Source: Actinomycetota bacterium
GTDB lineage: Bacteria; Actinomycetota; UBA4738; HRBIN12
Length of the DNA: 43,867 nucleotides
NCBI GenBank assembly: GCA_036520695.1
Contig: DATDJD010000095.1
Coordinates: 1 to 43,867, forward strand
Direction: 5' to 3'
Each line of letters opens with the position of its first letter. Position 1 is the stretch's first letter. A model generated the notes under the pieces. It did no database searches and was not told the origin of the DNA. It saw nothing but the letters and a program-made list of their open reading frames with translations. The position numbers and the translations under genes were made by a program. Positions 2,643-41,037 of the stretch are shown here, one piece after another.

Positions 2643-2749
2643 CTGAAGAATCTACCGGTGGTCATCCGGTCGTGACCCGAACTGGCAGTACCCTAGGTTG
2701 CATCCGCAACGACAGCCCGCGATCAGACCAAGGAGCCTCAGACCCCCGC

Positions 2750-23484: not shown

Positions 23485-23503
23485 CGAGAGCGTCGCGGCC
23501 GAC

Positions 23504-23533
23504 TTGAACAACCGTTCAATCTCGATGTATAAG
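23504..23533 (+). promoter_or_regulatory. Sigma-A-type promoter with a GAAC-N4-GTTC palindrome over the -35 element
   Basis: TTGAAC (23504-23509), an 18-nt spacer and TATAAG (23528-23533) form the promoter. TTGAAC-AACC-GTTCAA (23504-23519) is a perfect 6+4+6 palindrome. The predicted transcript would begin near 23540 with the hairpin GTGGGCGC-TCGA-CGGCGTCCAC (23540-23561), then GGAGGA, then the start at 23590/23593. Confidence 0.55.
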
Positions 23534-23589
23534 GGTTCCGTGGGCGCTCGACGGCGTCCACCCCACGCTGACGACGACGCAGGAGGACC

Positions 23590-24687
23590 GTGATGACCGA
23601 CGAACACCGCTCGCCGCTGCACGCATGGCACGAGGCCCAGGGCGCTGAGGTCCTGATCGAGGACGGCTGGCCCTGGTACATGCACGAAGGCACCGACCCG
23701 CTGGCGGAATACGAGGCCGTGCGCACCGGTACCGGCATCTGGGATCTGTTCTCGACCAGCAAATACGAGGTCACCGGCCCGGATGCCGCTCGCTTGATCC
23801 AGCGCCGGTTCACCAACACGGTCACCGGCATGGCGCCCGGCTCGGTCCGCTACGGCGCCTTCGTGAATGCCGACGGACTCATGGTCGACGACGGCAACGT
23901 CTACAAGCTCGCCGAGGACCGCTTCTGGATCATGATCAACACCGCCGATCTCGATGGTTGGTTCCGCGAAACCGCCGACGGTCTCGACGCGCAGATCGCC
24001 CACCGCACCGAAGAACTCGCGATGATCGCCGTGCAGGGCCCTACATCGCACGACACGCTGCAGGGTCTGACCGCCGGTGACCTCAGCGAACTCGGCTACT
24101 TCCGGTTCTGGCCCGAGCCGACCACCGTGGCCGGGGCGTCTGCCTGGATCACCCGCACGGGGTTCTCCGGTGAGAAGGGGTACGAGATCGTCCTCGACCC
24201 CGGTGACGCGCAAAGCGTGTGGGACGCGTTGATCGCGGCGGGCGCCACGCCGTTCGGACTCACCGCGATCGATCTCGCGCGGACCGAGGTCGGGCTCATC
24301 ATCATCGCCGTGGACTACAACCCCGCGGAGATCTCGCCCTACGACCTGTCGATGGACAAGTTCATCAAGACCGACACGGAGAACGTCGCGGTCGAGGCGC
24401 TGTCGTCTTATGGGGCGACGCCACCGAAGCGTTTCAAGACACTGAAGATCGAAGGCGACGCGATGCCCGACTACGGCGCCGCCGTCACGAAGGACGGCGT
24501 CCAGGTCGGTGTCGTCACCTCGCCCGCGGTCTCTCCGCGCCTGGGCACGATCGGGCTCGCGATCTTGGATGCCGGCGTCGCGACCGACGGCGAGAAGGTC
24601 GAAGTTGCGGTTGAAGGCGGGACGGCGGCCGCGACGGTCGAGGTCCTTTCGCTCCTCGATCCCAAGAAGGAGAAGCCTCGCGCCTGA
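23590..24687 (+). CDS. GcvT-family aminomethyltransferase (THF-dependent; substrate uncertain)
   Basis: The 365-aa ORF reads SPLHAWHEAQGA...EYEAVRTGTGIWDLFSTSKYEVTGPDAARLIQRRFTN...RYGAFVNADGLMVDDG...IAVQGPTS...GFSGEKGYEI, the glycine-cleavage T-protein fold. It looks closer to demethylase-type members than to canonical GcvT, so I give no symbol. Confidence 0.8.
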   Translation: MMTDEHRSPLHAWHEAQGAEVLIEDGWPWYMHEGTDPLAEYEAVRTGTGIWDLFSTSKYEVTGPDAARLIQRRFTNTVTGMAPGSVRYGAFVNADGLMVDDGNVYKLAEDRFWIMINTADLDGWFRETADGLDAQIAHRTEELAMIAVQGPTSHDTLQGLTAGDLSELGYFRFWPEPTTVAGASAWITRTGFSGEKGYEIVLDPGDAQSVWDALIAAGATPFGLTAIDLARTEVGLIIIAVDYNPAEISPYDLSMDKFIKTDTENVAVEALSSYGATPPKRFKTLKIEGDAMPDYGAAVTKDGVQVGVVTSPAVSPRLGTIGLAILDAGVATDGEKVEVAVEGGTAAATVEVLSLLDPKKEKPRA

Positions 24688-24733
24688 GGGCGCACGGAGA
24701 CCGGCGACGGCACCGGACACAGGCACGAGCATC

Positions 24734-24765
24734 GAAGGGGCGGGCGCCATCGTGCCCGCCCCTTC
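24734..24765 (+). terminator. GC-rich hairpin, candidate intrinsic terminator after the aminomethyltransferase gene
   Basis: GAAGGGGCGGGC (24734-24745), the loop GCCATCGT, and GCCCGCCCCTTC (24754-24765) give a perfect 12-bp stem. It lies 47 nt after the stop codon. No U-tract follows, which is common in high-GC actinobacteria but lowers confidence. Confidence 0.5.
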
Positions 24766-24779
24766 CCTATGCTGACCCG

Positions 24780-25703
24780 ATGACCCGGGGCGAGCTCTTC
24801 GGCGTGGTGCCGAACTTCAGCGAAGGCCGGCGCGCGGACGTCATCGACGAGATCGTCGAGGCGCTGCACGTGCCGGGGGCGCGCGTCGTGTACGCCGAAG
24901 CAGACCCAGACCACAACCGGTTGGACACGACCGTGCTCGGTGACGCCGAGGCGGTCAGGGCCAGCGCGCTGGCTGGGGCCGCCGTCGCTGTGGAGCGGAT
25001 CGACATGAACCGGCATGAGGGTGGCCACCCTCGGATGGGCGCGGCCGACGTGATCCCGTTCATGCCGGTATCGGGTGCGTCGATGCAGGAGTGCGTCGAG
25101 CTCGCTCGAGGGTTCGGCCGGGAGCTCGCCGAGTCGCTGGATCTGCCCGTCTACCTCTACGACCAGGCCGCGTTGCTCCCGGAGCGCGCCTCGCTCGCCG
25201 ACGTCCGGCGAGGGCAGTTCGAAGGGCTGCGGGATGCCGTCGCGGCAGGGGAACGTCTCCCGGACTTCGGCCCGCACGTGATCGGGCCGAAAGGTGCGAC
25301 CGCCGTCGGCGCCAGGAAGCCGCTCGTGGCGTTCAACGTGTACCTCGACGGAACCGACGAACCTGCTGCCAAGGCGATCGCGTCGGCGATGCGAACGTCC
25401 AACGGCGGCCTGCCTGCCGTCCGAGCCATCGGGTTCGCGGTCCCGGAGCGCGGAGGGATCGTCACCGTCTCGATGAACCTGGTCGACCATGAGGTCACCG
25501 GGGTTATGGCCGCCTTCGACGAGGTGACCCGACTCGCGGCCGAGCAGGGCATGGCCGTCACCGATTCGGAGATCGTGGGTTTGGTGCCGGCATCGGCGCT
25601 GGACCCGGGCGACATCGACCACCTGCAGCTCGTGGGGTTCGATCTCGATCGACAGGTGCTGGAGCGGCTGGTGGACGCCGCGGAGGAGGGAACGAACACG
25701 TGA
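24780..25703 (+). CDS. ftcD: Glutamate formimidoyltransferase (FtcD N-terminal-type transferase domain)
   Basis: LFGVVPNFSEGRRADVIDEIVEAL...DPDHNRLDTTVLGD...GGHPRMGAADVIPF are formiminotransferase motifs. TATGCT lies 6 nt upstream of the ATG. Confidence 0.88.
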   Translation: MTRGELFGVVPNFSEGRRADVIDEIVEALHVPGARVVYAEADPDHNRLDTTVLGDAEAVRASALAGAAVAVERIDMNRHEGGHPRMGAADVIPFMPVSGASMQECVELARGFGRELAESLDLPVYLYDQAALLPERASLADVRRGQFEGLRDAVAAGERLPDFGPHVIGPKGATAVGARKPLVAFNVYLDGTDEPAAKAIASAMRTSNGGLPAVRAIGFAVPERGGIVTVSMNLVDHEVTGVMAAFDEVTRLAAEQGMAVTDSEIVGLVPASALDPGDIDHLQLVGFDLDRQVLERLVDAAEEGTNT

Positions 25704-26341
25704 GTGACCTGGAACTGGGCAGCTTGAGCGTCGAGGGGTTCTGCGAGGTATTGGCGTCAGATTCCCCGACACCTGGGGGCGGCGCGGTCGGAGCGATCGA
25801 GGCCGCCGCGGCAGCCTCGCTGATCGCGATGGTGGGCCGGCTCACGGTGGACAAAGCGGGGTTCGAAGACCTCGCCGAGCGGATGCGCGCCATGATCGTG
25901 ACGGCCGATGCTGCGCAGGCCGATTTCCTGCACCTGGCCGATCGCGATGCGCACGCCTTCGATTCCGTGATGGAGGCGTTCCGCATGCCGAAGGAGACCG
26001 ACGAGGACAAAGCTGCCCGATCGGCTGCGATCCAAGCGGGCTACCTCGCCGCCGCGTCCGTGCCGCAGGAGGTCGCGCGAAAAGCCGTCGACCTGATGGA
26101 GCTTGCGGAGGACGCCACCGCGATGGGCAACCCCCAGGCGGCCTCGGACGGATTGTCGGCGGCTGCGTCGCTGTATGCCGGTGCCCTTTGCGCGATCGCG
26201 AATGTGGAGATCAACGCGAGCTCCCTCAAGGACGTGGACACCCGGGCCACGATGCTCGCCGAGCTTGCGTCCCTGAAAGCACGAGCCGATCAGTCACTGA
26301 GGGAATCCCAGACCGCGTTCCAGCTCCGGCTCGCTCCGTAG
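25700..26341 (+). CDS. Formimino-THF cyclodeaminase / methenyl-THF cyclohydrolase family protein (FTCD C-terminal type)
   Basis: FCEVLASDSPTPGGGAVGAIEAAAAASLIAMVGRLT is the cyclodeaminase helical-bundle signature. The GTG start overlaps the transferase stop (GTGA, 25700-25703). The two halves of eukaryotic FTCD are therefore separate, coupled genes here. Confidence 0.85.
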   Translation: MSDLELGSLSVEGFCEVLASDSPTPGGGAVGAIEAAAAASLIAMVGRLTVDKAGFEDLAERMRAMIVTADAAQADFLHLADRDAHAFDSVMEAFRMPKETDEDKAARSAAIQAGYLAAASVPQEVARKAVDLMELAEDATAMGNPQAASDGLSAAASLYAGALCAIANVEINASSLKDVDTRATMLAELASLKARADQSLRESQTAFQLRLAP

Positions 26342-26366
26342 TAGCCGCCTCGGCTGCCACGGATCG

Positions 26367-28037
26367 CTAGAACAGCCCGACGGTCGTGCCGTCTTGGTCG
26401 ATATCGACGTGCTGGAAGGCGGGCGTCTTGCCAAGGCCGGGCATGCGCTGCATGTCACCGCACAGGACCACCACGAACCCGGCGCCGGCGCTGGGAACCA
26501 CTGCCCGCACGGGCAAGCGGAAACCGGTTGGCCGATTCAGCATGAGCGGGTCGTGGCTGAGGGACAGGTGGGTCTTCGCCATGCAGACGGGCATCTCACC
26601 GAACCCGAGTTCCTGCATGCGGGTGATGTCCTTCTCGGCCTGCGGCAAGTAGTCGACGCCGTCGGCGCCATAGACGCGGGTCGCGATCGCCTCGATCTGT
26701 TCCTTCAGGCCCGCGCCGGTCGGCGTCAGGAAATCGAACCTGTTGGTCTTCTCGCACGCCTCGACGACCGCGTGCGCGAGGTCGATCGCGCCCTGTCCCC
26801 CTTGTGCGAACGCACGGTTGACGACCACCGTTTCGGCGCCGGCACCCACCGCCAGGTCCTCGATCAGGGCGATCTCCGCCTCGGTATCGGTCGGGAAGTT
26901 GTTGATCGACACGACGCACGGCAAGCCGTACTGCCGGATGATGTTGATGTGCGCGCTGAGGTTGTCGATGCCAGCGCGCAAGGCCTCGAGATCCTCGTTC
27001 GCGAGATCGTTGAACGCCATCCCGCCGTGGGACTTCGTTGCGCGCACGGTGGTCACCAGCACTGCCGCGCTGGGCGTGAACCCGCCGAACCGACACACGA
27101 TGTCGCAGAACTTCTGGAAGCCGAGATCTGAGGCGAACCCCGCCTCGGTGATCACGTAGTCGGCGAGCTTCAGCGCCACCCGGTCCTCGATGATCGAGTT
27201 GTTGGCGTGGGCGATGTTGCCGAATGGACCGGCGTGTGCGAGAACGGGCTGACCCTCGAGCGTCTGCACGAGGTTGGGCTTGATCGCGTCCTTCATGATG
27301 ACGGTCATGGCGCCACCGGCCTGCAGGTCGTCGGCGGTGACCGGGGTTCCGTCGTAGGTCGAAGCCACCACGATGCGGCCGAGCCGCGTGCGCAGGTCCT
27401 GCAGGTCGCTCGCCAACGCGAAGATCGCCATGACCTCCGAGGCCGCCGCGATCACGAACCCGTCCTGGCGTGGGACGCCGTGTGCCTTGCCGCCCAGGCC
27501 CACGACGATGTTCCGCAGTTCCCGATCATTCATGTCCATCGTGCGGGGCCACGTGATCGATTGCGGGTCGATGTTGAGCACGTTGCCGTGGTAGATCGAC
27601 GCGTCGAGGGCCGCCGCCAGCAGGTTGTGTGCCGCCGCCACCGCGTGGAAGTCACCGTTGAAATGGAGGTTGAACTCTTCCATCGGCACGACCTGCGCGT
27701 AGCCGCCACCGTTGCCGCCGCCTTTGATACCCCAGACCGGACCCATCGAGGGCTCGCGCAGGCAGAGCATGACGTCCTTGCCGATCGCACCCAGGCCCTG
27801 GGTCAGGGACACGCTGGTGGTGGTCTTGCCTTCACCCGCCTTGGTGGGTGTGATCGCCGTGGTGATCACCAGCTTGCCGTCAGGCATGCCGGCGAGCCGA
27901 TCCAGGATCGAAAGATCGATCTTGGCGCGATCCCTGCCGTACTGCTCTAGCTCGTCGTCATGGATCCCGGCGGCGGCTGCGATGTCGGCGATGGGCGTGA
28001 GGGTGGCCTCTTGGGCGATCTCGAGTCCGGACTTCAT
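26367..28037 (-). CDS. fhs: Formate--tetrahydrofolate ligase
   Basis: The 556-aa ORF contains TPTKAGEGKTTTSVSLTQGL (P-loop) and GGGYAQVVPMEEFNLHFNGDFHAV, which are FTHFS signatures. Confidence 0.93.
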   Translation of the reverse strand: MKSGLEIAQEATLTPIADIAAAAGIHDDELEQYGRDRAKIDLSILDRLAGMPDGKLVITTAITPTKAGEGKTTTSVSLTQGLGAIGKDVMLCLREPSMGPVWGIKGGGNGGGYAQVVPMEEFNLHFNGDFHAVAAAHNLLAAALDASIYHGNVLNIDPQSITWPRTMDMNDRELRNIVVGLGGKAHGVPRQDGFVIAAASEVMAIFALASDLQDLRTRLGRIVVASTYDGTPVTADDLQAGGAMTVIMKDAIKPNLVQTLEGQPVLAHAGPFGNIAHANNSIIEDRVALKLADYVITEAGFASDLGFQKFCDIVCRFGGFTPSAAVLVTTVRATKSHGGMAFNDLANEDLEALRAGIDNLSAHINIIRQYGLPCVVSINNFPTDTEAEIALIEDLAVGAGAETVVVNRAFAQGGQGAIDLAHAVVEACEKTNRFDFLTPTGAGLKEQIEAIATRVYGADGVDYLPQAEKDITRMQELGFGEMPVCMAKTHLSLSHDPLMLNRPTGFRLPVRAVVPSAGAGFVVVLCGDMQRMPGLGKTPAFQHVDIDQDGTTVGLF

Positions 28038-28149
28038 GGGTGCGTCGGTTCCTTCCGTTTGATCGGGCGTTCAACGTCGGACGATACGACCCGAAGGCGC
28101 CTGGCTCCAAACGGTCGTTGCGTCGTGCGCGACGTTGGATACTGGTGAC

Positions 28150-28992
28150 ATGGCCGACACGGTTCCTCCCATCCGCAGGAACGTCACCCCCGTTCGCGTG
28201 GTCGCCGTCAACGGTGGGGTGCGCTCGGAACGGCCGGATACCCTGGCCACCGAGGAACCGTTGGAGATCCGTGTCGCGGGACCTGGACAGGACGCGACGC
28301 AGGTGGCGGTCACGATGCGTACCCCCGGGGGCGACTTCGAGCTGGCGGTGGGGTTCCTGTTCACCGAAGGGCTCATCGCGCCGAGCGACGTGGCGCGCGT
28401 GGCCTATTGCGACGACCTCGAGGACGAGGAGCAGCGCTTCAACGTGGTGACGGTCACCTTGACCCGGGCGTTCGACGCCTCCAGCCTGCATCGCAACTTC
28501 TTCGCGACCTCCTCGTGTGGGATCTGCGGCAAGGCGGCGTTGGACGACATCCAGGTGCGATGCGCTCCAGTGGCGTCTGGGCCCGAGGTGGCAGCGTCCA
28601 CGATCGTGGGGTTGCCGGACTCGCTCCGCGCCGGACAACGAGTGTTCGACCGCACGGGAGGGCTACACGCCGCGGGCCTGTTCACGCCCGAGGGCGAGTT
28701 GGTGAGCCTGCGCGAGGACGTCGGCCGTCACAACGCCGTCGACAAGGTGATCGGCGAGCAGGTGCTTGCTGGTTCGGTGCCATCGGCCGAGCGGATCCTG
28801 CAGGTCAGCGGACGGGCGAGTTTCGAGATCGTCCAGAAGGCGGCGGTCGCCGGCATCCCCATCGTGAGCGCCGTGAGCGCGCCCTCGTCATTGGCGGTGG
28901 AAGCGGGGGAGCGCTTCGGGATGACGATCGTGGGCTTCGTGCGGGGCGATCGATGCAACGTCTACAGCCACGCCGAGCGCGTGCTGGCCTGA
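28150..28992 (+). CDS. fdhD: Formate dehydrogenase accessory sulfurtransferase FdhD
   Basis: TEEPLEIRV, SSCGICGKAALDD, GGLHAAGLF and EDVGRHNAVDKVIG are FdhD motifs. I prefer ATG 28150 (MADTVPP) over the track's TTG 28135. GATACT lies 6 nt upstream. Confidence 0.88.
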   Translation: MADTVPPIRRNVTPVRVVAVNGGVRSERPDTLATEEPLEIRVAGPGQDATQVAVTMRTPGGDFELAVGFLFTEGLIAPSDVARVAYCDDLEDEEQRFNVVTVTLTRAFDASSLHRNFFATSSCGICGKAALDDIQVRCAPVASGPEVAASTIVGLPDSLRAGQRVFDRTGGLHAAGLFTPEGELVSLREDVGRHNAVDKVIGEQVLAGSVPSAERILQVSGRASFEIVQKAAVAGIPIVSAVSAPSSLAVEAGERFGMTIVGFVRGDRCNVYSHAERVLA

Positions 28993-29014: not shown

Positions 29015-29515
29015 TCAGTCGCCTCGCATCTCCGGCACCCGAGATTCCCAGTCGTAGATGACCGAGGTTCGGAACACCAGGTCGTGCACGGATGCGTTCC
29101 GCTTGCTGACCGCGCTCCAGAACAGGCCCAGCGGGAACAGCACACACGTGAGGGCTCGCAGGAAGGAACGGGCGACGCGGACGCGCTCACCCTTGTCGGT
29201 CTGGATGCGTAAGCCCATGATCCGCATCCCCATCGTGCGCCCCAGGCTGGACCACGCGATCGTGAGCGCCAGCACAGCCACGATCATGGCGACGACGAGG
29301 AACACCGGGAAGTCGGTCTTCGGCCACGTGAATCTGACCGGGTTCCGCAAGAACCGGACCCCGGCGTAGCCGGCGTAGACGATCCCGCAGATCACGGCGA
29401 CGTAGACGATGTCGACCACCATGGCGATGGTCCGAGAGACCACCCCGGCTCGTTGACCCTGTTGCTCGGCGGCGCTCGCCGGGAACAGATGCGAGGCTCC
29501 TGTCGCTTGCTCCAT
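29015..29515 (-). CDS. RDD-family integral membrane protein
   Basis: From ATG 29515 the protein reads MEQATG...GVVSRTIAMVVDIVYVAVICGIVYAG...SVHDLVFRTSVIY. The R..D and HD..T positions of RDD domains are present, with three hydrophobic helices. The start shares one base with the upstream stop (TGATG). Confidence 0.8.
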   Translation of the reverse strand: MEQATGASHLFPASAAEQQGQRAGVVSRTIAMVVDIVYVAVICGIVYAGYAGVRFLRNPVRFTWPKTDFPVFLVVAMIVAVLALTIAWSSLGRTMGMRIMGLRIQTDKGERVRVARSFLRALTCVLFPLGLFWSAVSKRNASVHDLVFRTSVIYDWESRVPEMRGD

Positions 29516-30564
29516 CACCGATCTCCCGAGGGTGGGTCGAGATCCCGGGCTTCTCGACGCAGCACCTTGTCGACGATCCGCGAGACCAGACGATCGGCGT
29601 TCATGCCCTGCACACGGACGGTCTGCACGCTCTCGCTCGCCATGGCGCCGGAGGACTCGCGAACGATCGCCGGCAGGTCGACGTCGTCGATGACCTCCTG
29701 CGCGATCGCCCCCAGGTCGAGGCGATCGATGATCGAGGTGATATCGACCCGTTCGACGATGCGCTCGATGTCGACACCGTCCACGACCTCGTTCAGGTCG
29801 ACGGTGCCGATCACGCGCTGCACGTCGACGCGGTCGATGATCGCGTCCATGTCGACCTTCGCGACGATCGCGTCGATATCGACCCGATCCATGATCTTGT
29901 CGAGGTCGACGTCTTCGACGATGGCGTTCACGTCGACGCGTTCCTTGACGAGGGCGGTCAGGTCGACCTGGTCCATCACGCCCTTCACGATCTCGGGCAC
30001 CAGGATCGCCAGGAACGATGAAGCCGCCTCCAGCGTCTCTGCCTGTGCCGCCTTCCATTGGCCATCGAGCACCCGGGTCGCTCCGCCGGCAACCTCGGTC
30101 GCCTGCTTCGCGAACTTCGGATCGATGACCCATGAGATCAACGGCGCCATGGCCTCGGCGGCCTTGGTGGCTGCTGACGCGGCCGCCTCTGCGGCCGTCA
30201 CGGCGGCACCCAGGCCGGCACCGGCGAGCATCGCCGCCGGGTCTGCCTCGGTTTCGGCGCTCTCGTCGCGTTCTGGCATCGTTGCTCGGAGGGCATCTGC
30301 GAACGCCGTGGCACCCGCCGAGAACATCCCTGCTCCGACCCGCATCCCTTGCTCGAGCAGACCGGCGACCGCGGTGCCGGGGATCGGTGAGCTGGGCGCC
30401 TCCTCGTCCTCCTGGGGGTCATCCATGCCGGCGGCGAGAGCTTCCTCGTAGCTCATCTCGCGGTCGTCGGTCTCGATGCCCTCATCGGAAGGAGGCACGC
30501 GAAGCGGCACGACGTTGTCTGGCTGCTCGTTCGACGGCGTCTCGCCGATCGGGATGCGATCCAT
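29515..30564 (-). CDS. Hypothetical acidic protein with eleven tandem VDxxxIVxx nonapeptide repeats
   Basis: From ATG 30564 (MDRIPIGETPSNEQ...) there is an acidic N-terminus, then an Ala-rich segment, then VDLTALVKER VDVNAIVED VDLDKIMDR VDIDAIVAK VDMDAIIDR VDVQRVIGT VDLNEVVDG VDIERIVER VDITSIIDR LDLGAIAQEVIDD VDLPAIVRE. G/C is high at third positions. I recognise no family. The upstream part of track ORF 29515..31248 is antisense to the fdh gene and is rejected. The start codon is uncertain because the SD is weak. Confidence 0.7.
   Translation of the reverse strand: MDRIPIGETPSNEQPDNVVPLRVPPSDEGIETDDREMSYEEALAAGMDDPQEDEEAPSSPIPGTAVAGLLEQGMRVGAGMFSAGATAFADALRATMPERDESAETEADPAAMLAGAGLGAAVTAAEAAASAATKAAEAMAPLISWVIDPKFAKQATEVAGGATRVLDGQWKAAQAETLEAASSFLAILVPEIVKGVMDQVDLTALVKERVDVNAIVEDVDLDKIMDRVDIDAIVAKVDMDAIIDRVDVQRVIGTVDLNEVVDGVDIERIVERVDITSIIDRLDLGAIAQEVIDDVDLPAIVRESSGAMASESVQTVRVQGMNADRLVSRIVDKVLRREARDLDPPSGDR
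29677..29967 (-). repeat. 27-nt-period coding tandem repeat phased by GTCGAC (VD codons)
   Basis: GTCGAC, or a one-mismatch variant, starts at 29677, 29716, 29743, 29770, 29797, 29824, 29851, 29878, 29905, 29932 and 29962. The spacings are 39, then 27 eight times, then 30. Confidence 0.9.
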
Positions 30565-30673: not shown

Positions 30674-32617
30674 ATGAGCAGGACGCTCACCCGGCTGACC
30701 GAGCCGATGGTCCGCGAGGACGGCGAACTGCGTGTCGCGACCTGGGACGAAGCCCTCGATCGGGCTGCCCAAGGATTGCGCCGCGCCGCCGATCGCAACC
30801 CCGGCTGGGGCACAGGGGTGTTCAGTTGCTCCAAGGCCACCAACGAGATGAACTTCGTCGCACAGAAGTTCAGCCGCCAGGTCTTGGGCAGCAACAACAT
30901 CGATAGCTGTAACCGCACCTGACACGCTCCTTCGGTGGTCGGTCTGGCCACCGTGTTCGGAGCCGGAGGCGGCACCAGTTCATATGAGGAGGTCGAGAAC
31001 ACCGACCTCATCCTGCTGTGGGGCTCCAATGCACGAGCCGCACACCCCATCTTCTTCCACCGCGTCCTGAAGGCGGTCAACAAGGGTGCCACGCTGATCG
31101 TGGTGGACCCACGTCGAACCGAGTCCGCCGAATGGGGCGATCTATGGTTGGGTATCGACGTCGGCACCGACATCGCCCTGTCCAACACGATCGCGCGCGA
31201 GATCGTCGTCAACGAGCTGCAGCACCACACGTTCATCGAGCACGCCACGCTGGGCTACTCCGAGTACGTCGATTCGATCATGGACTGGACGCTCGAGCGC
31301 GGCGAGCAGGTCACGGGCGTACCTGCCGACGTGATCCGGGAAGTGGCCCACGCGTACGCGAAGGCCGACCGGGCGATGATCTGCTGGACGTTGGGCATCA
31401 CCGAGCATCACAACGCCGTCGACAACGTGCTCTCCCTGATCAACCTGTCGCTACTGACCGGGCATGTGGGCACGTACGGCAGCGGTGTGAACCCGCTGCG
31501 AGGCCAGAACAACGTCCAGGGTGGCGGCGACATGGGCGCGATCCCTAACAAGCTGCCGGGATTCCAGGACATCGAGAAGGATGACGCGGCACGGCAGAAG
31601 TTCGAAGCGGCCTGGGACGTGCCGATCATCCCGAAGTACGGCTACACCCTGACCCAGATGTTCGAAGCGATGGATCGGGGTGAGTTGACCGCCGCGTACG
31701 TGATCGGGGAGAACCCGGCCAGCAGCGAGGCGGACAAGCAACACACCGAAGTACTCCTCCGCGGCCTCGACACCTTGATCGTCCAGGACCTCTTCATGAC
31801 CCGAACCGCTGAGCTCGCCGATGTGGTGCTCCCGGCGTCGAACGCGTCCTTCGAGTCCGATGGCACCGTCACGAACTCCGAACGTCGTGTGCAACGCGTT
31901 CGCAAGGCGCTGGATCCCCCGGGCGACGCACGTGACGACATCTGGATCATCGCCGAGCTCGCCCGGCGTATGGGTGCGACCGGGTGGGAGGAGGTCACCG
32001 CGGAGGGTGCGTGGGAAGAGCTCCGAACCCTGAGTCCGATGCACGCAGGGATGAGCTGGCAGCGCCTCGAGGACCTTGGAGGCCTCCAGTGGCCGTGCCC
32101 GGACGAAGAGCACCCAGGCACCATGTTCCTGCACGCCCGTCTGTGGGCAGAGGACCCCGCCGAGCAGGGTGCGAAGGCGCCGTTCTCGATCGTCATCGAC
32201 GAGCCACCGGTGGACGAACTCAGCGATGAATTCCCGTTGCGGCTCACCACCGGACGCAGGCTGGATTCCTACAACACGGGTGTCCAGACCGGCGCCTACA
32301 CGTCGCCGCTCCGACGTGGCGAGACGATCGATGTCTCGCCAGAGGACGCGGAGCGGATGGGGTTGGCCGAGGATCAGTGCGTGATCGTGTCCAGCCGTCG
32401 CGGCTCGCTGGAAGTACCGGTCCACGTCGACCCCGCGTTGCGTCCCGGGCTGGTCTTCATGACCTTCCACTTCCCCGACGAGGTGGATACGAACGTGCTC
32501 ACGATCGAGGCGACCGACCCGAAGTCGGGGACCGCTGAGTTCAAGGCGTCGGCCGTGCGCATCGACACGATGCCTGCCGATCGGTCGGTCGGGGTTTCGG
32601 GCGCTGGCGGGGAGTAG
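30674..32617 (+). CDS. fdhA: Formate dehydrogenase catalytic (Mo-bisPGD) polypeptide lacking the N-terminal Fe-S modules. In-frame TGA 30920-30922 is predicted to encode selenocysteine.
   Basis: Track ORFs 30605..30922 and 30935..32617 share one frame and are separated only by the TGA. GSNNIDSCNRT-TGA-HAPSVVGL aligns with the FdhF active-site segment. Downstream are typical MopB and molybdopterin-binding regions (ILLWGSNARAAHP..., the C-terminal TFHFPDE...TDPKSGTAEFKA barrel). ATG 30674 (MSRTLTRLTEPMVRE) has GGAAGGAG 10 nt upstream. Confidence 0.85.
30920..30953 (+). promoter_or_regulatory. UGA (Sec) codon plus a bacterial SECIS-like hairpin
   Basis: UGA at 30920-30922. The stem CGGUGGUC (30933-30940) pairs with GGCCACCG (30946-30953), 8 bp including one G.U. 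The apical loop GGUCU (30941-30945) starts 18 nt after the UGA. Confidence 0.65.
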
Positions 32618-32677
32618 AGTCTCCCGCGTGATGTCGGCCGCCTGCCCCCTCGCGATCGTTCGCTCCTCGGAGGTGCG

Positions 32678-34555
32678 TTGGACCTCCATCTGACGGACGC
32701 ACGGGCCACCGATGACGAACGGGCCGCGGTCGATGGCCTCCTCGGCCCACCGAACAGCTCGTGGGATGGCGCTGCCGTACGGTCCGAGTTCGACCATCGG
32801 GTGGCCAGGGCCGGTAAGGACGCTCGTGGTCAGCGCGACCTCCTGTTGCCCACGCTGCACGCGTTGCAGGCGGGCGTGGGGTGGATCAGCCCCGGCGGTC
32901 TCAACTACGTCAGTGAGCGACTCACCGTGCCGCCTGCCGAGGCCTACGGGGTCGCCACCTTCTACGCCATGTTCAGCGTCGAGGAACGCCCGACGACCGT
33001 CGTGCATGTGTGCGACGACCTCGCGTGCCGGCAGGTGGGTGGTGCCGAGATCCTGTCCCGACTCGAGGGTTCGCAGGCTCATGCGGTGGCGAGCCCCTGT
33101 CTCGGGCTGTGCGAACACGCGCCGGCAGCCTTGATCCAAGTGGCAGGGTCGAAGGCGTCTGACGCCTCGGTGGCGCCGATCACGCCGGAGATCGAAGGGC
33201 TCCTCGCCGCCGGTGGTGCCGCCGCCGGTGATACCCGAGGGGTCAACGATCCTCAGGCCCCTGACTCGCTCCGTCTGCTGCGGCGGGTCGGCGTCGTCGA
33301 CCCGACCTCGATCGACGACTATCGGGCGCATGGCGGGTACGAGGCGCTCCGTCTCGCGCTCGAACACGGCCCGGAGTGGACCCTTCGAGAGATCACCGAC
33401 GCGAAGTTGATGGGTCGCGGGGGCGCGGCGTTCCCGACCGGCGTGAAATGGAAGGCGGTCGCCGAACAGCCGGTGCACCCGCACTACTTCATCTGCAACG
33501 CCGACGAATCCGAGCCCGGCACCTTCAAGGACCGCGTCGTGATGGAGCAGGACCCGTTCGCGGTCATCGAAGCCCTCACGATCGCCGGCGTCACGACCGG
33601 GTGCGAGCTGGGCTACGTGTACATCCGGGGTGAGTACCCGTTGGCGACCCAACGCCTGGAACTCGCGATCGCCGAGGCTCGTCATCACGGGTTCCTCGGC
33701 GAGGACGTGATGGGCCACGGTGCCACCTTCGACATCGAACTGCGACGCGGCGCGGGTGCCTACATCTGCGGCGAGGAGACGGCGCTGTTCAACTCGCTGG
33801 AAGGCAAACGTGGTGAACCGCGGAACAAGCCTCCGTTCCCCGTGCAACGAGGGGTGTTCGGCAAACCCACCGGCATCAACAACGTCGAGACTCTGATCAA
33901 CGTGCTCGAGGTGCTGCCCATGGGCGGCCAGGCGTACGCGGAACTCGGCACCGAAGGATCGACGGGGCCACGGCTGTTCTGCCTGTCCGGCGCGGTGACC
34001 TCGCCGGGTGTGTACGAGTTCGAACATGGCACCACGCTGGGAGAGGTCATCGAGGCGGCGGGTGGTGTCCGCGACGGCAAGCAGCTGAAGGCGGTGTTGC
34101 TCGGTGGCGCCGCGGGGGGGTTCGTCGGGCCTGACCGTCTCGACGTGCGCTTGACGTTCGAGGATGCACGCGCCGGGGGCTACACCCTGGGGTCGGGGGT
34201 CGTGATGGTCTTCGACGAAGACGCGGATCTGACCGATGCGTGCCTGCGCATCGCGCGGTTCTTCCGCGATGAATCGTGCGGCCAATGCGTGCCGTGTCGT
34301 GTCGGCACCGTGCGGCAGGAGGAAGCGCTCCATCGCTTGGTGCAGGGTCGCCTGCTCGGCACCACGCAGGACGAGCTGCGGTTGCTCGAAGATGTGGCCC
34401 AGGTGATGCGGGACGCGTCGATCTGCGGCCTGGGCCAGACCGCCGCCAACGCGATCCAGTCGGCGATCGCATCGCTCGGCGTGTTCGGTGGCGACGCCGG
34501 CGATACGCTCGACGGTGACGCGGTGCCCACCGCGACCGAGGAACAGGAGTCGTAG
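32678..34555 (+). CDS. NuoE-like (2Fe-2S) / NuoF-like (FMN, NAD, 4Fe-4S) fusion, the diaphorase subunit of NAD-dependent formate dehydrogenase (FdsG-FdsB-type)
   Basis: The N-terminus LLPTLHALQAGVGWISPGGLNYVSERL...VCDDLACR...SPCLGLCEHAP is NuoE-type. It is followed by GRGGAAFPTGVKW...ICNADESEPGTFKDR...GAGAYICGEETAL...ESCGQCVPCRVG...ICGLGQ, which is NuoF-type. The TTG start is preceded by GGAGG at 4 nt. Confidence 0.88.
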   Translation: MDLHLTDARATDDERAAVDGLLGPPNSSWDGAAVRSEFDHRVARAGKDARGQRDLLLPTLHALQAGVGWISPGGLNYVSERLTVPPAEAYGVATFYAMFSVEERPTTVVHVCDDLACRQVGGAEILSRLEGSQAHAVASPCLGLCEHAPAALIQVAGSKASDASVAPITPEIEGLLAAGGAAAGDTRGVNDPQAPDSLRLLRRVGVVDPTSIDDYRAHGGYEALRLALEHGPEWTLREITDAKLMGRGGAAFPTGVKWKAVAEQPVHPHYFICNADESEPGTFKDRVVMEQDPFAVIEALTIAGVTTGCELGYVYIRGEYPLATQRLELAIAEARHHGFLGEDVMGHGATFDIELRRGAGAYICGEETALFNSLEGKRGEPRNKPPFPVQRGVFGKPTGINNVETLINVLEVLPMGGQAYAELGTEGSTGPRLFCLSGAVTSPGVYEFEHGTTLGEVIEAAGGVRDGKQLKAVLLGGAAGGFVGPDRLDVRLTFEDARAGGYTLGSGVVMVFDEDADLTDACLRIARFFRDESCGQCVPCRVGTVRQEEALHRLVQGRLLGTTQDELRLLEDVAQVMRDASICGLGQTAANAIQSAIASLGVFGGDAGDTLDGDAVPTATEEQES

Positions 34556-34557
34556 CG

Positions 34558-35547
34558 ATGGCCTCCGCCGTGCCCCTGGAACCGCCGCGCCGGCTGTTCA
34601 CGATGGAGGTCGACGGCACCGAGGTGCGGGTCGCTGACGGCGCCACGATCCTGGACGCGTGCCGTGCCCTCGAGGTCGACACGCCCACGTTGTGTTTCGC
34701 CGACAACCTCACGCCGGTCAACGCCTGTCGCGTGTGCGTCGTCGAGGTCGAAGGCGCCCGGACGCTCGTGCCTGCGTGCAGCCGCAAGGCCGAAGACGGC
34801 ATGAAGATCAAGACGGACACCGAACGCGTCCAGCACTCCCGCAAGCTGGTGATGGAGATGCTCGCGAGCAGCGTCGAGATGGAGCTCACGAGCCCCGATG
34901 TGCACCGGTGGATGGAGGACTACGAGGTCCACCCCGAACGCTTCGGGGCGCAGATGGATCCGTTGCCCGCGGGGGAGCGAGACGATCGCGAGCCCGGTCA
35001 CCACCACGACCCCACCGACCCCACGGTCGCCGAGGGTGTCCATCAGCCGATCAAGATCGACAACGAGCTGTACGTGCGCGACTACTCGCGCTGCATCCTC
35101 TGCTACAAGTGCGTCGAAGCCTGCGGTGTCGACGCACAGAACACGTTCGCGATCGCGGTGGCCGGGCGAGGGTTCGACGCCCGGATCTCAACGGAGTACG
35201 CGGTGGGCCTCGACGAGAGCGCGTGCGTCTACTGCGGCAACTGCATCGGGGTGTGTCCCACGGGGGCACTGATGTTCACGAGTGAGCACGAGCACCGTGA
35301 AGCCGGCACGTGGAACGAGGACGAACAGACCGTGACGAACACGATCTGTCCGTATTGCGGGGTGGGATGCGAGTTAGAGCTGCACGTGCAGGACAACGAG
35401 ATCGTCAAGGTCACCTCGCCCGCGGACCATTCGGTGACGAGCGGGCACCTCTGCATCAAGGGACGGTTCGGCTTCGCGTTCGTGCAATCGCGCAAGGGTG
35501 ACGATCCTTTGGCTCGCAAACGAAGGGCCCGGAAGGAGCGCGACTAG
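34558..35547 (+). CDS. Fe-S polypeptide corresponding to the N-terminal third of a NuoG-type formate dehydrogenase alpha subunit (2Fe-2S, ferredoxin-type 4Fe-4S clusters and the Mo-bisPGD-type 4Fe-4S FS0 motif)
   Basis: TLCFADNLTPVNACRVCVVEV is the 2Fe-2S motif. CILCYKCVEACG and CVYCGNCIGVCPTGAL are 4Fe-4S motifs. TICPYCGVGCELELHV...GHLCIKGRFGFAFV is the MopB N-terminal cluster. The protein then ends in a basic tail, SRKGDDPLARKRRARKERD. Confidence 0.85.
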   Translation: MASAVPLEPPRRLFTMEVDGTEVRVADGATILDACRALEVDTPTLCFADNLTPVNACRVCVVEVEGARTLVPACSRKAEDGMKIKTDTERVQHSRKLVMEMLASSVEMELTSPDVHRWMEDYEVHPERFGAQMDPLPAGERDDREPGHHHDPTDPTVAEGVHQPIKIDNELYVRDYSRCILCYKCVEACGVDAQNTFAIAVAGRGFDARISTEYAVGLDESACVYCGNCIGVCPTGALMFTSEHEHREAGTWNEDEQTVTNTICPYCGVGCELELHVQDNEIVKVTSPADHSVTSGHLCIKGRFGFAFVQSRKGDDPLARKRRARKERD

Positions 35548-36172
35548 TCTGGTACAGACTAGTGGAACCACGCGCGGCGTCGGGGCGACCGGCATCGTCC
35601 TGGCAGGTGGGCGTTCCCAGCGGTTCGGCTCGGACAAGCTCGTGGCTCCCTACCGGGGAGCACCGCTACTGGATCATGCTGTCCTGCGGCTCGCGGAGTG
35701 CACGCGTGAAGTCATCGTCGTACTCGCCCCCGAGGGCGTGGAGCCGTCCTTCCCTCCGGGTGTGTCGGTGCGCACGGTCCGAGACGCCATCGCGGACCAG
35801 GGACCCCTGGAAGGTGTCCTCGCGGGGCTGGTTGCTGCCGGGTCGGATCTCGCGGTCGTGATCGCGGGAGACATGCCCGAGGTCTCGACCGCAGTGGCCA
35901 TGGAGATGCTTCGCGTGGTGGCCAACGACGCCACGGTCCAGGCCGTGACGCTGCAGGATGGCGATCGGTTCCGGCCGCTCCCGCTGGTGGTTCGCACCGG
36001 TCCCGCGCTGGAGGCGGCTCATGCTCTCCGCCATCGCGGTGAAAGGAGATTGCGGGCCCTTCCTGAGGCGCTGCGAACCGCGGTGATCGACGAAGGCACG
36101 TGGCATGGTCTCGACCCGGAACTCGGGACGGTGTGGGACATCGACGAGCCGAGTGACCTACGGGGCCAGTAG
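35498..36172 (+). CDS. mobA: MobA-like NTP transferase (molybdenum cofactor guanylyl/cytidylyl-transferase)
   Basis: GIVLAGGRSQRFGSDKLVAPYRGAPLLDHAVLRL and IAGDMPEV are MobA/MocA motifs. The start is uncertain. GTG 35498 gives a 50-nt overlap with the Fe-S gene. The only other in-frame candidate before the LAGG motif is CTG 35549, 10 nt after GGAAGGAG. Confidence 0.75.
   Translation: MTILWLANEGPGRSATSLVQTSGTTRGVGATGIVLAGGRSQRFGSDKLVAPYRGAPLLDHAVLRLAECTREVIVVLAPEGVEPSFPPGVSVRTVRDAIADQGPLEGVLAGLVAAGSDLAVVIAGDMPEVSTAVAMEMLRVVANDATVQAVTLQDGDRFRPLPLVVRTGPALEAAHALRHRGERRLRALPEALRTAVIDEGTWHGLDPELGTVWDIDEPSDLRGQ
35543..35563. repeat. Perfect 21-nt inverted repeat ACTAGTCTG-GTA-CAGACTAGT
   Basis: The 9-nt arms at 35543-35551 and 35555-35563 have no mismatch. 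It is AT-rich relative to the window. It covers the TAG stop (35545-35547) of the Fe-S gene. Confidence 0.9.
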
Positions 36173-40413: not shown

Positions 40414-41037
40414 ATGGGGATGTTCTCGAAGCACCATCCGCCTGAAGTCGCGGCGCGGATCCCGCCCGGGCAGCGCCTGGTGAAGACGTGGCCGGTGCTG
40501 CATTTCGGGACGATCCCGCAGTTCAACGGGACCGACTGGGATCTGGAGATCTCCGGGCTGGTCGAGGCGCCCTACCGTCTGACCTACCAGGAGCTCCTGG
40601 ATCTCCCACGGTCCACGATCGACGCCGACATGCATTGCGTGACGGGCTGGACCACGCTGGACAACACATGGGAAGGCGTGTCGTTCCGTAGCCTCGCAGA
40701 GCGCGCCCGGCCCACCGCCGAGGCCAAGTGGGTCATCGCGCACTCCTCGATGGGCTACACGTCGAACCTATCGCTGGAGGCCATGGATCAAGACGACGTA
40801 CTGGTGGCCTGGCGCAACCACGGCGAGGACCTCACGCCCGAACATGGCTGGCCGCTGCGACTGGTCGTGCCTCAGCGCTACGCGTGGAAGAGCGCGAAGT
40901 GGCTCACCGGACTGGAGTTCAGCGCGAAGAACGTCCGGGGCTTCTGGGAGGTTCGCGGCTACCACGTGCACGGCGAGCCGTTCGCCGAGGAGCGCTACAG
41001 CTATCAGGAGGGCGCGCGCGCCGAGTTCCAGCCGTAG
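40414..41037 (+). CDS. Small sulfite-oxidase-fold molybdopterin-binding oxidoreductase (YuiH/YedY-like)
   Basis: DWDLEISGLVEAPYRLTYQELLDLP...DMHCVTGWT (Mo-ligand Cys)...GWPLRLVVPQRYAWKSAKWL are present. GGAGGAAG lies upstream. No signal peptide is evident. Confidence 0.82.
   Translation: MGMFSKHHPPEVAARIPPGQRLVKTWPVLHFGTIPQFNGTDWDLEISGLVEAPYRLTYQELLDLPRSTIDADMHCVTGWTTLDNTWEGVSFRSLAERARPTAEAKWVIAHSSMGYTSNLSLEAMDQDDVLVAWRNHGEDLTPEHGWPLRLVVPQRYAWKSAKWLTGLEFSAKNVRGFWEVRGYHVHGEPFAEERYSYQEGARAEFQP

What the first reader, a model, noticed from the sequence alone, without database searches (positions are those of the whole stretch)
30674..35547. Formate dehydrogenase alpha subunit split at the FS0/Mo-domain junction, with the halves encoded in permuted order around a NuoE-NuoF fusion
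**Fe-S half (34558..35547).** It carries a NuoG-type 2Fe-2S motif, two ferredoxin-type 4Fe-4S motifs (CILCYKCVEAC, CVYCGNCIGVCP) and the Mo-bisPGD N-terminal 4Fe-4S motif (CPYCGVGC...LCIKGRFGFAFV). It then stops after a short basic tail.

**Catalytic half (30674..32617).** It begins MSRTLTRLTEPMVREDGELRVATWDEAL. In single-chain enzymes this segment directly follows the K-G-x-[FY]-G motif. From memory, E. coli FdhF reads LCLKGYYGWDFIN....RLKTPMIRR...VSWDEAL.

**Consequence.** One canonical alpha subunit therefore equals the product of the third gene plus the product of the first gene, with the fused diaphorase (32678..34555) between them. Canonical fdsGBA-type operons keep the alpha subunit intact and last. 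Placing the FS0 cluster module on a different chain from the Mo domain it normally packs against is unusual. The order cat-diaphorase-FeS suggests a translocation rather than a simple stop-codon split.
Basis: partly seen in the sequence, partly recalled or inferred. Interest (0 to 1): 0.7.

Follow-up and report, generated by a model that had tools for sequence, protein, structure and literature searches.

The report
Split, selenocysteine formate dehydrogenase operon
The window encodes a formate dehydrogenase whose first iron-sulfur cluster sits on a separate protein from the molybdenum domain; this layout is real, but it is an ancient, widespread family trait that was already noted in one cultured actinobacterium.

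Summary
Against intact FdsA (PDB 6tg9_A), the Fe-S protein (34558..35547) covers residues 27-304 and the catalytic protein (30674..32617) covers 308-932, with no gap or overlap. A NuoE-NuoF fusion (32678..34555) lies between the two genes.

The catalytic gene has an in-frame TGA (30920..30922) at the selenocysteine position, followed by a SECIS hairpin.

This is not a local accident:
- Order cat-nuoEF-FeS, or the part of it each stretch reaches, recurs in 97 classifiable loci from about ten phyla.
- All 66 relatives found through the Fe-S protein keep the TGA.
- All 16 cluster cysteines and the relay lysine K301 are invariant or nearly so in 200 Fe-S homologues.
- The split class forms one clade (61-88% identity, against 40-47% for intact enzymes).
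- Intact relatives have the order nuoEF-[FeS·cat], so the split operon is a circular permutation of that order.

Rohwerder et al. 2020 (PMC7176365, Suppl. Fig. S4) described the same architecture as FDH3 (FdhA3/B3/C3) of Actinomycetospora chiangmaiensis and detected all three subunits by proteomics.

Verdict: a real new member of a known but barely characterised kind. I found no solved structure or enzymology for it. Interest is modest.

The parts
30674..32617 (+). Catalytic subunit (FdhA-type, 647 aa): Mo/W-bisPGD domains only, no FS0 domain; Sec at residue 83
   Evidence: PF00384 and PF01568 only. Aligns to FdsA 308-932 and to FdhH 60-692. TIGR01591 profile positions 52-672. U-H dyad CNRT-U-HAPSV and the RGQNNVQG arginine motif are present. 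A GGAAGGAG Shine-Dalgarno-like sequence lies upstream of the ATG.
30920..30922 (+). In-frame TGA read as selenocysteine
   Evidence: Aligned with the active-site Cys/Sec of solved FDHs. TGA is kept in 66 of 66 relatives that were found through the Fe-S protein, i.e. not selected for TGA.
30933..30953 (+). SECIS hairpin (stem CGGTGGTC / GGCCACCG, loop GGTCT), starting 11 nt after the TGA
   Evidence: Hairpin present in the MFE and centroid folds. Across 163 distinct sequences the six upper pairs are at least 99% paired. The pair whose two bases were both left free by the search pattern covaries: C-G 118, G-C 33, U-A 11.
32678..34555 (+). NuoE-NuoF fusion (625 aa): 2Fe-2S, FMN/NAD(H) site, N3-type 4Fe-4S; no extra ferredoxin domains
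   Evidence: PF01257, PF01512, PF10531 and PF10589. NuoF and NuoE NCBIfam matches. PDB matches include FdsB, Fdh1B, NuoF and HydB. GGAGG lies 6 nt before the TTG start.
34558..35547 (+). Fe-S subunit (329 aa): NuoG/HoxU-like 2Fe-2S, two ferredoxin-type 4Fe-4S, and the FS0 4Fe-4S module
   Evidence: Pfam domains. Aligns to FdsA 27-304. 15 of the 16 ligand Cys are invariant and the sixteenth is 99.5% conserved in 200 homologues. It lacks the His-Cys3 (N5-type) motif present in FdsA (alignment). Its ATG starts 2 nt after the nuoEF stop.
35329..35487 (+). FS0 module (residues 258-310: CPYCGVGC...LCIKGRFG) including relay lysine K301
   Evidence: PF04879, E = 2.5e-20. TIGR01591 positions 1-60. C264, C267, C271 and K301 are invariant and C299 is 99.5% conserved.
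28135..28992 (+). FdhD sulfurtransferase/maturation factor
   Evidence: PF02634, E = 2.2e-67. Syntenic with the operon in most actinobacterial relatives.
35498..36172 (+). MobA-like molybdenum cofactor guanylyltransferase; overlaps the 3' end of the Fe-S gene by 50 nt
   Evidence: PF12804. Directly downstream of the Fe-S gene in nearly all actinobacterial loci. Sequence.
26367..28037 (-). Formate-tetrahydrofolate ligase (Fhs), divergent neighbour
   Evidence: Full-length conserved synteny fhs(-)/fdhD/cat/nuoEF/FeS/mobA in relatives such as L011, L013, L014, L029, L030 and L034. I identified it as Fhs from its translation and from my own knowledge; Pfam was not run on it.

Best explanation
The three genes encode one cytoplasmic, selenocysteine-dependent Mo- (or W-) bisPGD formate dehydrogenase.

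**Proposed subunits**
- FdhA: Mo domain only.
- FdhB: NuoE-NuoF fusion.
- FdhC: Fe-S subunit.

**Proposed electron path (inferred)**
1. Formate is oxidised at the Sec-ligated metal centre of FdhA.
2. Electrons leave through the pterin to the FS0 [4Fe-4S] cluster. FS0 and the relay lysine K301 are supplied in trans by the C-terminal module of FdhC, which docks where the covalently attached FS0 domain sits in single-chain enzymes.
3. Electrons pass along the two ferredoxin-type [4Fe-4S] clusters of FdhC to the N3-type cluster and FMN of FdhB. The [2Fe-2S] cluster of FdhC lies on or beside this path.
4. FdhB reduces NAD(P)+.

**Maturation (inferred)**
- FdhD and MobA, encoded alongside, mature the cofactor.

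**Shown versus inferred**
- Shown: domain content, the exact complementarity of the two halves, ligand conservation, the Sec codon with its SECIS, and the conserved operon.
- Inferred: that the three proteins form a complex, the docking geometry, NAD+ as acceptor, and the direction of the reaction.

**Origin (inference)**
- A single ancient event turned an operon nuoEF-alpha into cat-nuoEF-FeS, which is a circular permutation of the gene order.
- The most economical route is tandem duplication of the operon followed by loss of the outer parts.
For: - **Complementarity.** The catalytic protein lacks FS0 and the Fe-S protein ends with an orphan FS0. Together they tile FdsA 27-304 plus 308-932. 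They also tile 12 intact Sec alphas with only a 22-residue insertion at the cut.
- **Purifying selection.** 15 of the 16 Cys ligands and K301 are invariant in 200 Fe-S homologues, and the sixteenth Cys is 99.5% conserved.
- **Active site.** The U-H dyad and the Arg motif are present.
- **Selenocysteine.** TGA is kept in 66 of 66 relatives, and the SECIS stem covaries.
- **Operon.** The nuoEF-FeS spacer is 2 nt, RBS-like sequences precede the starts, and mobA overlaps the Fe-S gene. The order cat-nuoEF-FeS, or as much of it as each stretch covers, is seen in 97 classifiable loci from Actinomycetota, Acidobacteriota, Chloroflexota, Gemmatimonadota, Verrucomicrobiota, Planctomycetota, Spirochaetia, Dormibacterota, Armatimonadota and others.
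- **Single origin.** In a neighbour-joining tree of the catalytic subunit, no intact-alpha sequence falls under the common ancestor of the split class. Identity to the window is 61-88% for the split class and 40-47% for the others.
- **Intact relatives.** Enzymes with the same SECIS have the order nuoEF-[FeS·cat in one frame].
- **Experimental support from a homologue.** In A. chiangmaiensis FDH3, FdhA3 (640 aa, U80), FdhB3 (614 aa) and FdhC3 (316 aa) were all detected in the proteome. They were about 2-3-fold higher on 2-hydroxyisobutyrate, and formate removal depended on selenium (PMC7176365).
- **Link to that homologue.** The congeneric A. lemnae locus L158 has Sec at position 80 of a 642-aa protein and is 63% and 60% identical to the window's catalytic and NuoEF proteins.
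- **Not bifurcating by domain content.** The NuoEF protein has no extra Fer4 domains of the kind found in bifurcating HydB/HylB.
Against: - No direct evidence in this organism for expression, complex formation or activity.
- The docking of FS0 in trans could not be modelled.
- No selenocysteine machinery (selA, selB, selD, tRNA-Sec) lies in the window, so Sec decoding in this genome is inferred from the SECIS and from family-wide conservation.
- NAD+ versus NADP+, and the physiological direction, are not determined.
- The order of events in the origin cannot be resolved. No intermediate, such as an in-place split, was seen among the 27 intact relatives extracted.
Confidence: 0.8

Rival explanations
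1. Assembly or sequencing artefact, or a decaying pseudogene: an intact alpha gene was broken and shuffled in this assembly or lineage.
For: the ORF listing shows the catalytic gene as two ORFs because of the TGA. A few relatives, such as L027, L061, L121 and L187, show fragmented tblastn hits typical of frameshifted long-read assemblies.
Against: The same order and the same cut point recur in about a hundred independent assemblies from many projects and phyla, including Mb-scale contigs and records titled as chromosomes. Ligand residues are conserved at 99.5-100%. TGA with a covarying SECIS is universal. All three proteins were detected in A. chiangmaiensis.
Confidence: 0.02
2. The genes are neighbours but not one enzyme. 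NuoEF and the Fe-S protein form a HoxFU-like diaphorase serving another partner, and the FS0-less Mo subunit uses a different electron acceptor.
For: The Fe-S protein resembles HoxU, HndD and the NuoG N-terminus. Some Chloroflexota loci carry 0.6-3.6 kb of unrelated genes between cat and nuoEF.
Against: HoxU-type proteins do not carry a Mo-enzyme FS0 domain. Here an orphan FS0 with its relay lysine is invariant or nearly so, and the only FS0-less Mo subunit is encoded in the same cluster in every locus with enough flank. The three subunits were co-detected and changed together in A. chiangmaiensis.
Confidence: 0.05
3. It is the same three-subunit complex but with a different physiology: a CO2 reductase working in reverse, an NADP+-specific enzyme, or a flavin-based electron-bifurcating enzyme that also uses ferredoxin.
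For: The best PDB matches of the NuoEF protein are the NuoF-like subunits of bifurcating HydABC/NfnABC-type enzymes. Neighbouring genes include fhs and folate C1 enzymes. A 2-oxoacid:ferredoxin oxidoreductase lies at 2672..5603.
Against: The NuoEF protein lacks the extra ferredoxin-type domains that Pfam detects in bifurcating HydB/HylB (comparison from my own knowledge of those enzymes). The hosts by record title are mostly soil and aerobic lineages. In A. chiangmaiensis the enzyme is associated with formate removal during aerobic growth.
Confidence: 0.12

Closest known systems
FDH3 (FdhA3/FdhB3/FdhC3) of Actinomycetospora chiangmaiensis DSM 45062 (Rohwerder et al. 2020, PMC7176365, Suppl. 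Fig. S4)
   Same: Same architecture: a Sec-containing alpha with only the metallopterin part (640 aa, U80, against 647 aa, U83 here), a NuoE/NuoF fusion beta (614 against 625 aa), and a separate Fe-S gamma (316 against 329 aa). The congeneric A. lemnae locus is 63% and 60% identical and falls in the same clade.
   Different: Different organism: here an uncultured actinomycete whose closest MAG is 84-88% identical. The paper does not discuss that the cut lies exactly after FS0, that the relay lysine is supplied in trans, the permuted gene order, or the distribution of the family.
Soluble NAD+-dependent FDHs with an intact alpha: R. capsulatus/C. necator FdsABG(D) (6tg9, 6vw7) and M. extorquens Fdh1AB (7e5z)
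   Same: Same cofactor set apart from one cluster, and the same modules. The Fe-S half aligns to FdsA 27-304 and the catalytic half to FdsA 308-932. NuoF- and NuoE-like parts are present. The NuoE-NuoF fusion is also found in Fdh1B (PMC7176365 supplement).
   Different: The alpha is one chain in those enzymes and is encoded last. They use Cys, not Sec, according to the PMC7176365 supplement. FdsA has the His-Cys3 N5-type cluster that is missing here (alignment).
Intact Sec-containing nuoEF-fdhA operons in Latescibacterota, Gemmatimonadota, Planctomycetota, Verrucomicrobiota and Eggerthella (loci L087, L117, L119, L130, L134, L105 and others)
   Same: Same SECIS sequence pattern, and the Fe-S and catalytic parts in the same relative order within one reading frame. 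nuoEF lies upstream in many of them; L105 shows only the Fe-S and catalytic parts.
   Different: Only 30-47% identical. The alpha is uncut, and the gene order is nuoEF-alpha rather than cat-nuoEF-FeS.
FdhF/FdhH-type and F420/Hdr/HDCR-linked FDH catalytic subunits (1aa6, 7bkb_D, 9t1s_L, 7qv7_S)
   Same: These are the best sequence matches of the catalytic half, with E-values from 1e-124 to 1e-146. The active-site motifs are the same.
   Different: They carry FS0 in the same chain (their first roughly 60 residues), and their partner subunits differ.
Formylmethanofuran dehydrogenase FwdB/FwdD (my own knowledge; TIGR03129 match)
   Same: Another FDH-like Mo/W-bisPGD enzyme whose canonical catalytic chain is divided between two polypeptides.
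   Different: The cut there lies before the C-terminal cap domain (Molydop_binding), not after FS0. FS0 stays with the metal domain.

Membership tests
Mo/W-bisPGD formate dehydrogenase alpha (TIGR01591 / FdhF-FdsA clade) | Molybdopterin and Molydop_binding domains | tested here: met
   PF00384, E = 1.3e-67; PF01568, E = 3.8e-27.
Mo/W-bisPGD formate dehydrogenase alpha (TIGR01591 / FdhF-FdsA clade) | Active-site Sec/Cys-His dyad and conserved Arg | tested here: met
   CNRT-U(TGA)-HAPSV and LRGQNNVQG align with the motifs of solved FDHs.
Mo/W-bisPGD formate dehydrogenase alpha (TIGR01591 / FdhF-FdsA clade) | FS0 [4Fe-4S] domain at the N-terminus of the same chain; whole-protein score above the equivalog cut-off | tested here: not met
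   The catalytic protein has no PF04879. It scores 634.6 bits, below the 666.25 cut-off, and covers only profile positions 52-672. Positions 1-60 are found on the Fe-S protein (57.1 bits).
FdsABG / Fdh1AB-type soluble NAD+-dependent FDH | NuoF-like FMN/NAD(H) subunit and NuoE-like 2Fe-2S module | tested here: met
   Pfam and NCBIfam matches. PDB matches to FdsB (6vw7_B, 6tg9_B) and Fdh1B (7e5z_B).
FdsABG / Fdh1AB-type soluble NAD+-dependent FDH | Alpha subunit with the NuoG-like Fe-S domain fused to the Mo domain | tested here: not met
   The two parts are separate genes with nuoEF between them.
FdsABG / Fdh1AB-type soluble NAD+-dependent FDH | Formate:NAD+ oxidoreductase activity | not testable with these tools
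   Requires enzymology.
FDH3-type three-subunit Sec FDH (A. chiangmaiensis FdhA3B3C3) | Alpha of about 640 aa without Fe-S domain and with Sec near residue 80; NuoE/F fusion of about 614 aa; separate Fe-S protein of about 316 aa | tested here: met
   647 aa with U83, 625 aa and 329 aa, compared with the published sizes.
FDH3-type three-subunit Sec FDH (A. chiangmaiensis FdhA3B3C3) | Sequence relatedness to the described enzyme | tested here: met
   Tested through the congeneric A. lemnae DW7H6 locus L158: cat 63% and nuoEF 60% identical, Sec at position 80 of 642 aa, inside the split-class clade. The A. chiangmaiensis sequences themselves were not retrievable.
Bacterial selenoprotein gene | In-frame UGA followed by a SECIS hairpin | tested here: met
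   Hairpin with loop GGUCU starting 11 nt after the UGA. Conserved with compensatory changes. TGA in 66 of 66 relatives. No Rfam family reached its gathering score.
Bacterial selenoprotein gene | [quoted passage not shown] | not testable with these tools
   None in the 43.9-kb window. The rest of the genome is not available.
Electron-bifurcating HylABC-FdhF2 / HydABC-type complexes | NuoF-like subunit with additional ferredoxin-type [4Fe-4S] domains | tested here: not met
   No Fer4 domain on the NuoEF protein; only about 27 residues follow the N3 region.

The most novel reading that the evidence does not exclude
The split enzyme would be a distinct FDH class, so far recognised only in passing, with these properties:
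- It is a single clade.
- It has so far been seen only with selenocysteine.
- It has spread across at least ten mostly soil-dwelling phyla.
- It arose once by circular permutation of a nuoEF-fdhA operon (tandem duplication followed by trimming of both ends).
- The FS0 cluster and relay lysine act in trans.

That would make it the first Mo/W-bisPGD enzyme in which FS0 is on a different chain from the metal domain. The arrangement might allow the Sec- and cofactor-bearing subunit to mature separately before it docks on a pre-assembled Fe-S/flavin module.
Probability: 0.3. Interest if true: 0.5.

Novelty: new member of a known kind. Interest (0 to 1): 0.33.

Why it matters
- The FS0 cluster is normally regarded as an integral N-terminal domain of the catalytic chain of Mo/W-bisPGD enzymes. 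Here it is on another polypeptide, and the arrangement is conserved.
- This shows that the FS0/Mo-domain interface can be held together non-covalently. That is relevant to engineering modular FDHs for CO2 reduction and to understanding how these enzymes mature.
- The family is common in soil and freshwater MAGs. At least 556 stretches in species-representative genomes encode a relative of the Fe-S protein, and more than 8000 protein clusters were found, both search-capped lower bounds.
- It is easily mis-annotated. The catalytic gene is broken at the TGA, the Fe-S protein is labelled HndD, YjgC or '2Fe-2S-binding protein', and neither half reaches the TIGR01591 cut-off. Formate oxidation capacity in such genomes is therefore probably under-called.
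- Because one cultured example has already been described, this window adds breadth and detail rather than a new kind of system.

Tried and rejected
- **Fe-S subunit alone.** AlphaFold2 with a 36-sequence alignment gave mean pLDDT 55.8, and the FS0 and ferredoxin regions were below 50. This was too poor for a fold search, so none was run.
- **Rfam and ARAGORN on the window**. No SECIS family reached its gathering score and there is no tRNA-Sec. The SECIS was therefore established by comparative analysis instead. The single-sequence fold energy of the region is not exceptional (z = 0.24), so that result alone is not evidence.
- **Apparent second family of Fe-S-only proteins.** The representative search returned proteins of about 360-440 aa. 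The two clear cases read (P0198, P0218) are intact alphas cut at their own Sec TGA by gene callers, since they end in ...HCARL and ...NCSRA. They are rejected as independent splits.
- **Inserts in some Chloroflexota loci.** The 0.6-3.6 kb between cat and nuoEF holds unrelated small genes in the one locus read, L054. They are not extra subunits.
- **Literature.** Searches for a biochemical or structural study of the split enzyme found only Rohwerder 2020. A one-line note on Sulfobacillus (PMC4378227) says Sec FDH catalytic subunits lie next to NuoEFG-like genes.
- **Sulfobacillus not checked.** Whether that arrangement is the same split was not tested.


Full report
**1. What is in the sequence.**

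Three co-directional genes occupy 30674..35547.

- The first (30674..32617) contains only the Molybdopterin and Molydop_binding domains.
- The ORF listing splits it at an in-frame TGA (30920..30922) that lies in the motif CNRT-TGA-HAPSV.
- The second (32678..34555) is a fusion. It combines a NuoE-type thioredoxin-like 2Fe-2S domain with a NuoF-type FMN/SLBB/4Fe-4S module.
- The third (34558..35547) carries a NuoG-type 2Fe-2S domain, two ferredoxin-type 4Fe-4S motifs and the Molybdop_Fe4S4 (FS0) domain at residues 258-310. A 19-residue basic tail and the stop codon follow.
- FdhD (28135..28992) lies upstream. A MobA-like gene (35498..36172) overlaps the 3' end of the Fe-S gene.

**2. Is it really one alpha subunit in two pieces?**

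Yes.

- Against R. capsulatus FdsA (6tg9_A), the Fe-S protein covers FdsA 27-304.
- The catalytic protein covers FdsA 308-932. Against E. coli FdhH it starts at residue 60, just after that enzyme's FS0 domain.
- I extracted 27 intact selenocysteine alphas from related loci and aligned 12 of them with the concatenated window proteins.
- That alignment runs straight through ...CIKGRFGFAFVQSR | TRLTEPMVRE.... The Fe-S tail plus MSRTL forms a single 22-residue insertion.
- The NCBIfam equivalog TIGR01591 is literally divided between the two proteins.
- Profile positions 52-672 fall on the catalytic protein (634.6 bits, under the 666.25 cut-off).
- Profile positions 1-60 fall on residues 262-320 of the Fe-S protein (57.1 bits).

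**3. The TGA.**

The codon aligns with the Sec/Cys metal ligand of solved FDHs.

- A hairpin starts 11 nt downstream, with stem CGGUGGUC/GGCCACCG and loop GGUCU. As far as I recall, this loop matches that of the E. coli fdhF SECIS.
- Relatives collected through the Fe-S protein were not selected for TGA. All 66 in which the site is covered have TGA.
- Across 163 distinct sequences the six upper stem pairs are at least 99% paired.
- The pair left completely free by my search pattern shows C-G 118, G-C 33 and U-A 11. These compensatory changes fall at synonymous codon positions.
- The gene is therefore a selenoprotein gene, not a broken one.
- No Sec machinery lies in the window.

**4. Not an artefact and not a local event.**

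- In species-representative genomes, at least 556 stretches encode a relative of the Fe-S protein.
- Among the best 80 loci, every locus but two with enough flank (L046, L074) shows cat-nuoEF-FeS. The Fe-S ORF stops 0-33 residues after the KGRFGxxxVQ motif.
- A second scan used the SECIS pattern and returned 120 loci of two kinds.
  - (a) The split order, at 60-88% identity. This group includes the isolate Actinomycetospora lemnae.
  - (b) Intact alphas at 30-47% identity, with the Fe-S and catalytic parts in one reading frame and nuoEF upstream in many of them.
- By record title, hosts of the split form include Actinomycetota, Acidobacteriota, Chloroflexota, Gemmatimonadota, Verrucomicrobiota and Planctomycetota.
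- They also include Spirochaetia, Dormibacterota, Armatimonadota, Eisenbacteria and 'deltaproteobacteria'. Several contigs are Mb-scale, and some records are titled as chromosomes.
- In a neighbour-joining tree of 142 catalytic sequences, no intact enzyme falls under the common ancestor of the split class.
- Identity to the window is bimodal: 61-88% against 40-47%.
- In 200 Fe-S homologues, 15 of the 16 ligand cysteines and K301 are invariant and the sixteenth is 99.5% conserved. K301 is the lysine after the fourth FS0 cysteine, equivalent to the electron-relay Lys44 of FdhH by my own knowledge of that structure.

**5. How it most likely works.**

- The catalytic chain lacks FS0.
- The only orphan FS0 is on the Fe-S chain of the same operon, and the two tile an intact enzyme exactly.
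- The FS0 module must therefore dock on the Mo domain non-covalently and receive electrons from the pterin.
- The Fe-S chain then wires these electrons to the NuoF-type FMN site, which reduces NAD(P)+.
- The Fe-S protein lacks the His-Cys3 N5-type cluster of FdsA (alignment). At least one intact relative, P0218, lacks it too.
- The NuoEF protein has no extra ferredoxin domains, which argues against flavin-based bifurcation.
- Translational coupling signals and the fdhD and mobA neighbours fit a single maturation and assembly unit.
- The actinobacterial synteny with fhs, plus nearby GCV-T, formiminotransferase and 5-formyl-THF cyclo-ligase genes, suggests a link to folate-bound C1 units. This last point is inference.

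**6. Comparison with what is known.**

- Rohwerder et al. 2020 (PMC7176365) describe FDH3 of Actinomycetospora chiangmaiensis.
  - FdhB3 (614 aa) is a NuoE/NuoF fusion.
  - FdhC3 (316 aa) is called a 'separate but homologous' protein that replaces the N-terminal Fe-S domain.
- All three were detected in the proteome and were about 2-3-fold higher on 2-hydroxyisobutyrate. Formate removal needed selenium.
- The A. lemnae locus L158 has Sec at position 80 of a 642-aa protein. It sits in the same clade as the window's enzyme.
- The window therefore holds a new member of that kind.
- I did not find three points in the literature held here.
  - The precise statement that FS0 and its lysine travel with the Fe-S chain.
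  - The circular-permutation relation to nuoEF-alpha operons.
  - The breadth of the family and its so-far uniform use of Sec.
- No matching PDB chain has this split. All solved relatives carry FS0 on the catalytic chain.

**7. Origin.**

- cat-nuoEF-FeS is the circular permutation of nuoEF-[FeS·cat], which is the order seen in intact relatives.
- Tandem duplication of the operon followed by loss of the first nuoEF-FeS part and the last catalytic part would give it in one duplication and two deletions.
- Fission followed by transposition of one piece is the alternative.
- Nothing here discriminates between them. No intermediates were seen.

**8. Limits.**

- The docking geometry could not be modelled.
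- Activity, acceptor specificity and the metal are inferred.
- The remainder of this genome is unknown.

**Verdict.**

The observation and its core interpretation are correct. The feature is a conserved enzyme architecture rather than a genomic oddity, and it has a published precedent. Interest is modest at 0.33.

Noticed in passing
window 30920..30953: The catalytic gene is a selenoprotein gene: an in-frame TGA followed by a SECIS hairpin with loop GGUCU. Every relative checked (66 of 66, across many mostly aerobic soil phyla) keeps TGA. No Cys variant of the split family was seen.
   Followed up: yes
window 34558..35547 (residues ~100-160): The Fe-S subunit lacks the His-Cys3 (N5-type) 4Fe-4S motif present in FdsA and NuoG. 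In its place is an acidic, His-rich stretch (…REPGHHHDPTDPT…), of which G147 and H148-H150 are invariant in close relatives.
   Followed up: partly
window 29518..30564 (-) and 29018..29584 (-): Two minus-strand genes are inserted between fdhD and the catalytic gene. One encodes a 349-aa acidic protein with no Pfam match and a run of roughly 10-residue 'VDxxxIVxxVD' repeats. The other encodes an RDD-family membrane protein. In many relatives fdhD abuts the catalytic gene directly.
   Followed up: partly
window 22184..28037: A folate/C1 gene neighbourhood: 5-formyl-THF cyclo-ligase (22184..22867), glycine-cleavage T protein (23590..24687), formiminotransferase (24780..25703) and formate-THF ligase (26367..28037, minus strand). 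fhs is syntenic with the FDH operon in many Actinomycetota and in some Acidobacteriota and Gemmatimonadota loci.
   Followed up: partly
window 35498..35561: The mobA-like gene seems to start at GTG 35498, overlapping the last 50 nt of the Fe-S gene. A perfect palindrome, TAGTCTG-gta-CAGACTA, begins at the Fe-S stop codon (35545..35561).
   Followed up: no
proteins P0198 and P0218; JGI names: Gene callers truncate intact Sec-FDH alphas at the TGA, producing false 'Fe-S-only' proteins of about 360-440 aa. The genuine split Fe-S proteins are annotated HndD, YjgC or '2Fe-2S-binding protein'. Neither half of the split enzyme reaches the TIGR01591 cut-off.
   Followed up: yes
loci L051, L054-L056, L066, L069, L070, L095, L140 (Chloroflexota): These relatives carry 0.6-3.6 kb of extra DNA between the catalytic gene and nuoEF. 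In L054 it holds unrelated small genes, including one that looks glyoxalase/VOC-like by eye from its translation, and small membrane proteins.
   Followed up: partly
window 2672..5603 and 40414..41037: Elsewhere in the window there are a two-subunit 2-oxoacid:ferredoxin oxidoreductase (POR/TPP domains) and a small sulfite-oxidase-type molybdopterin-binding protein (PF00174).
   Followed up: no
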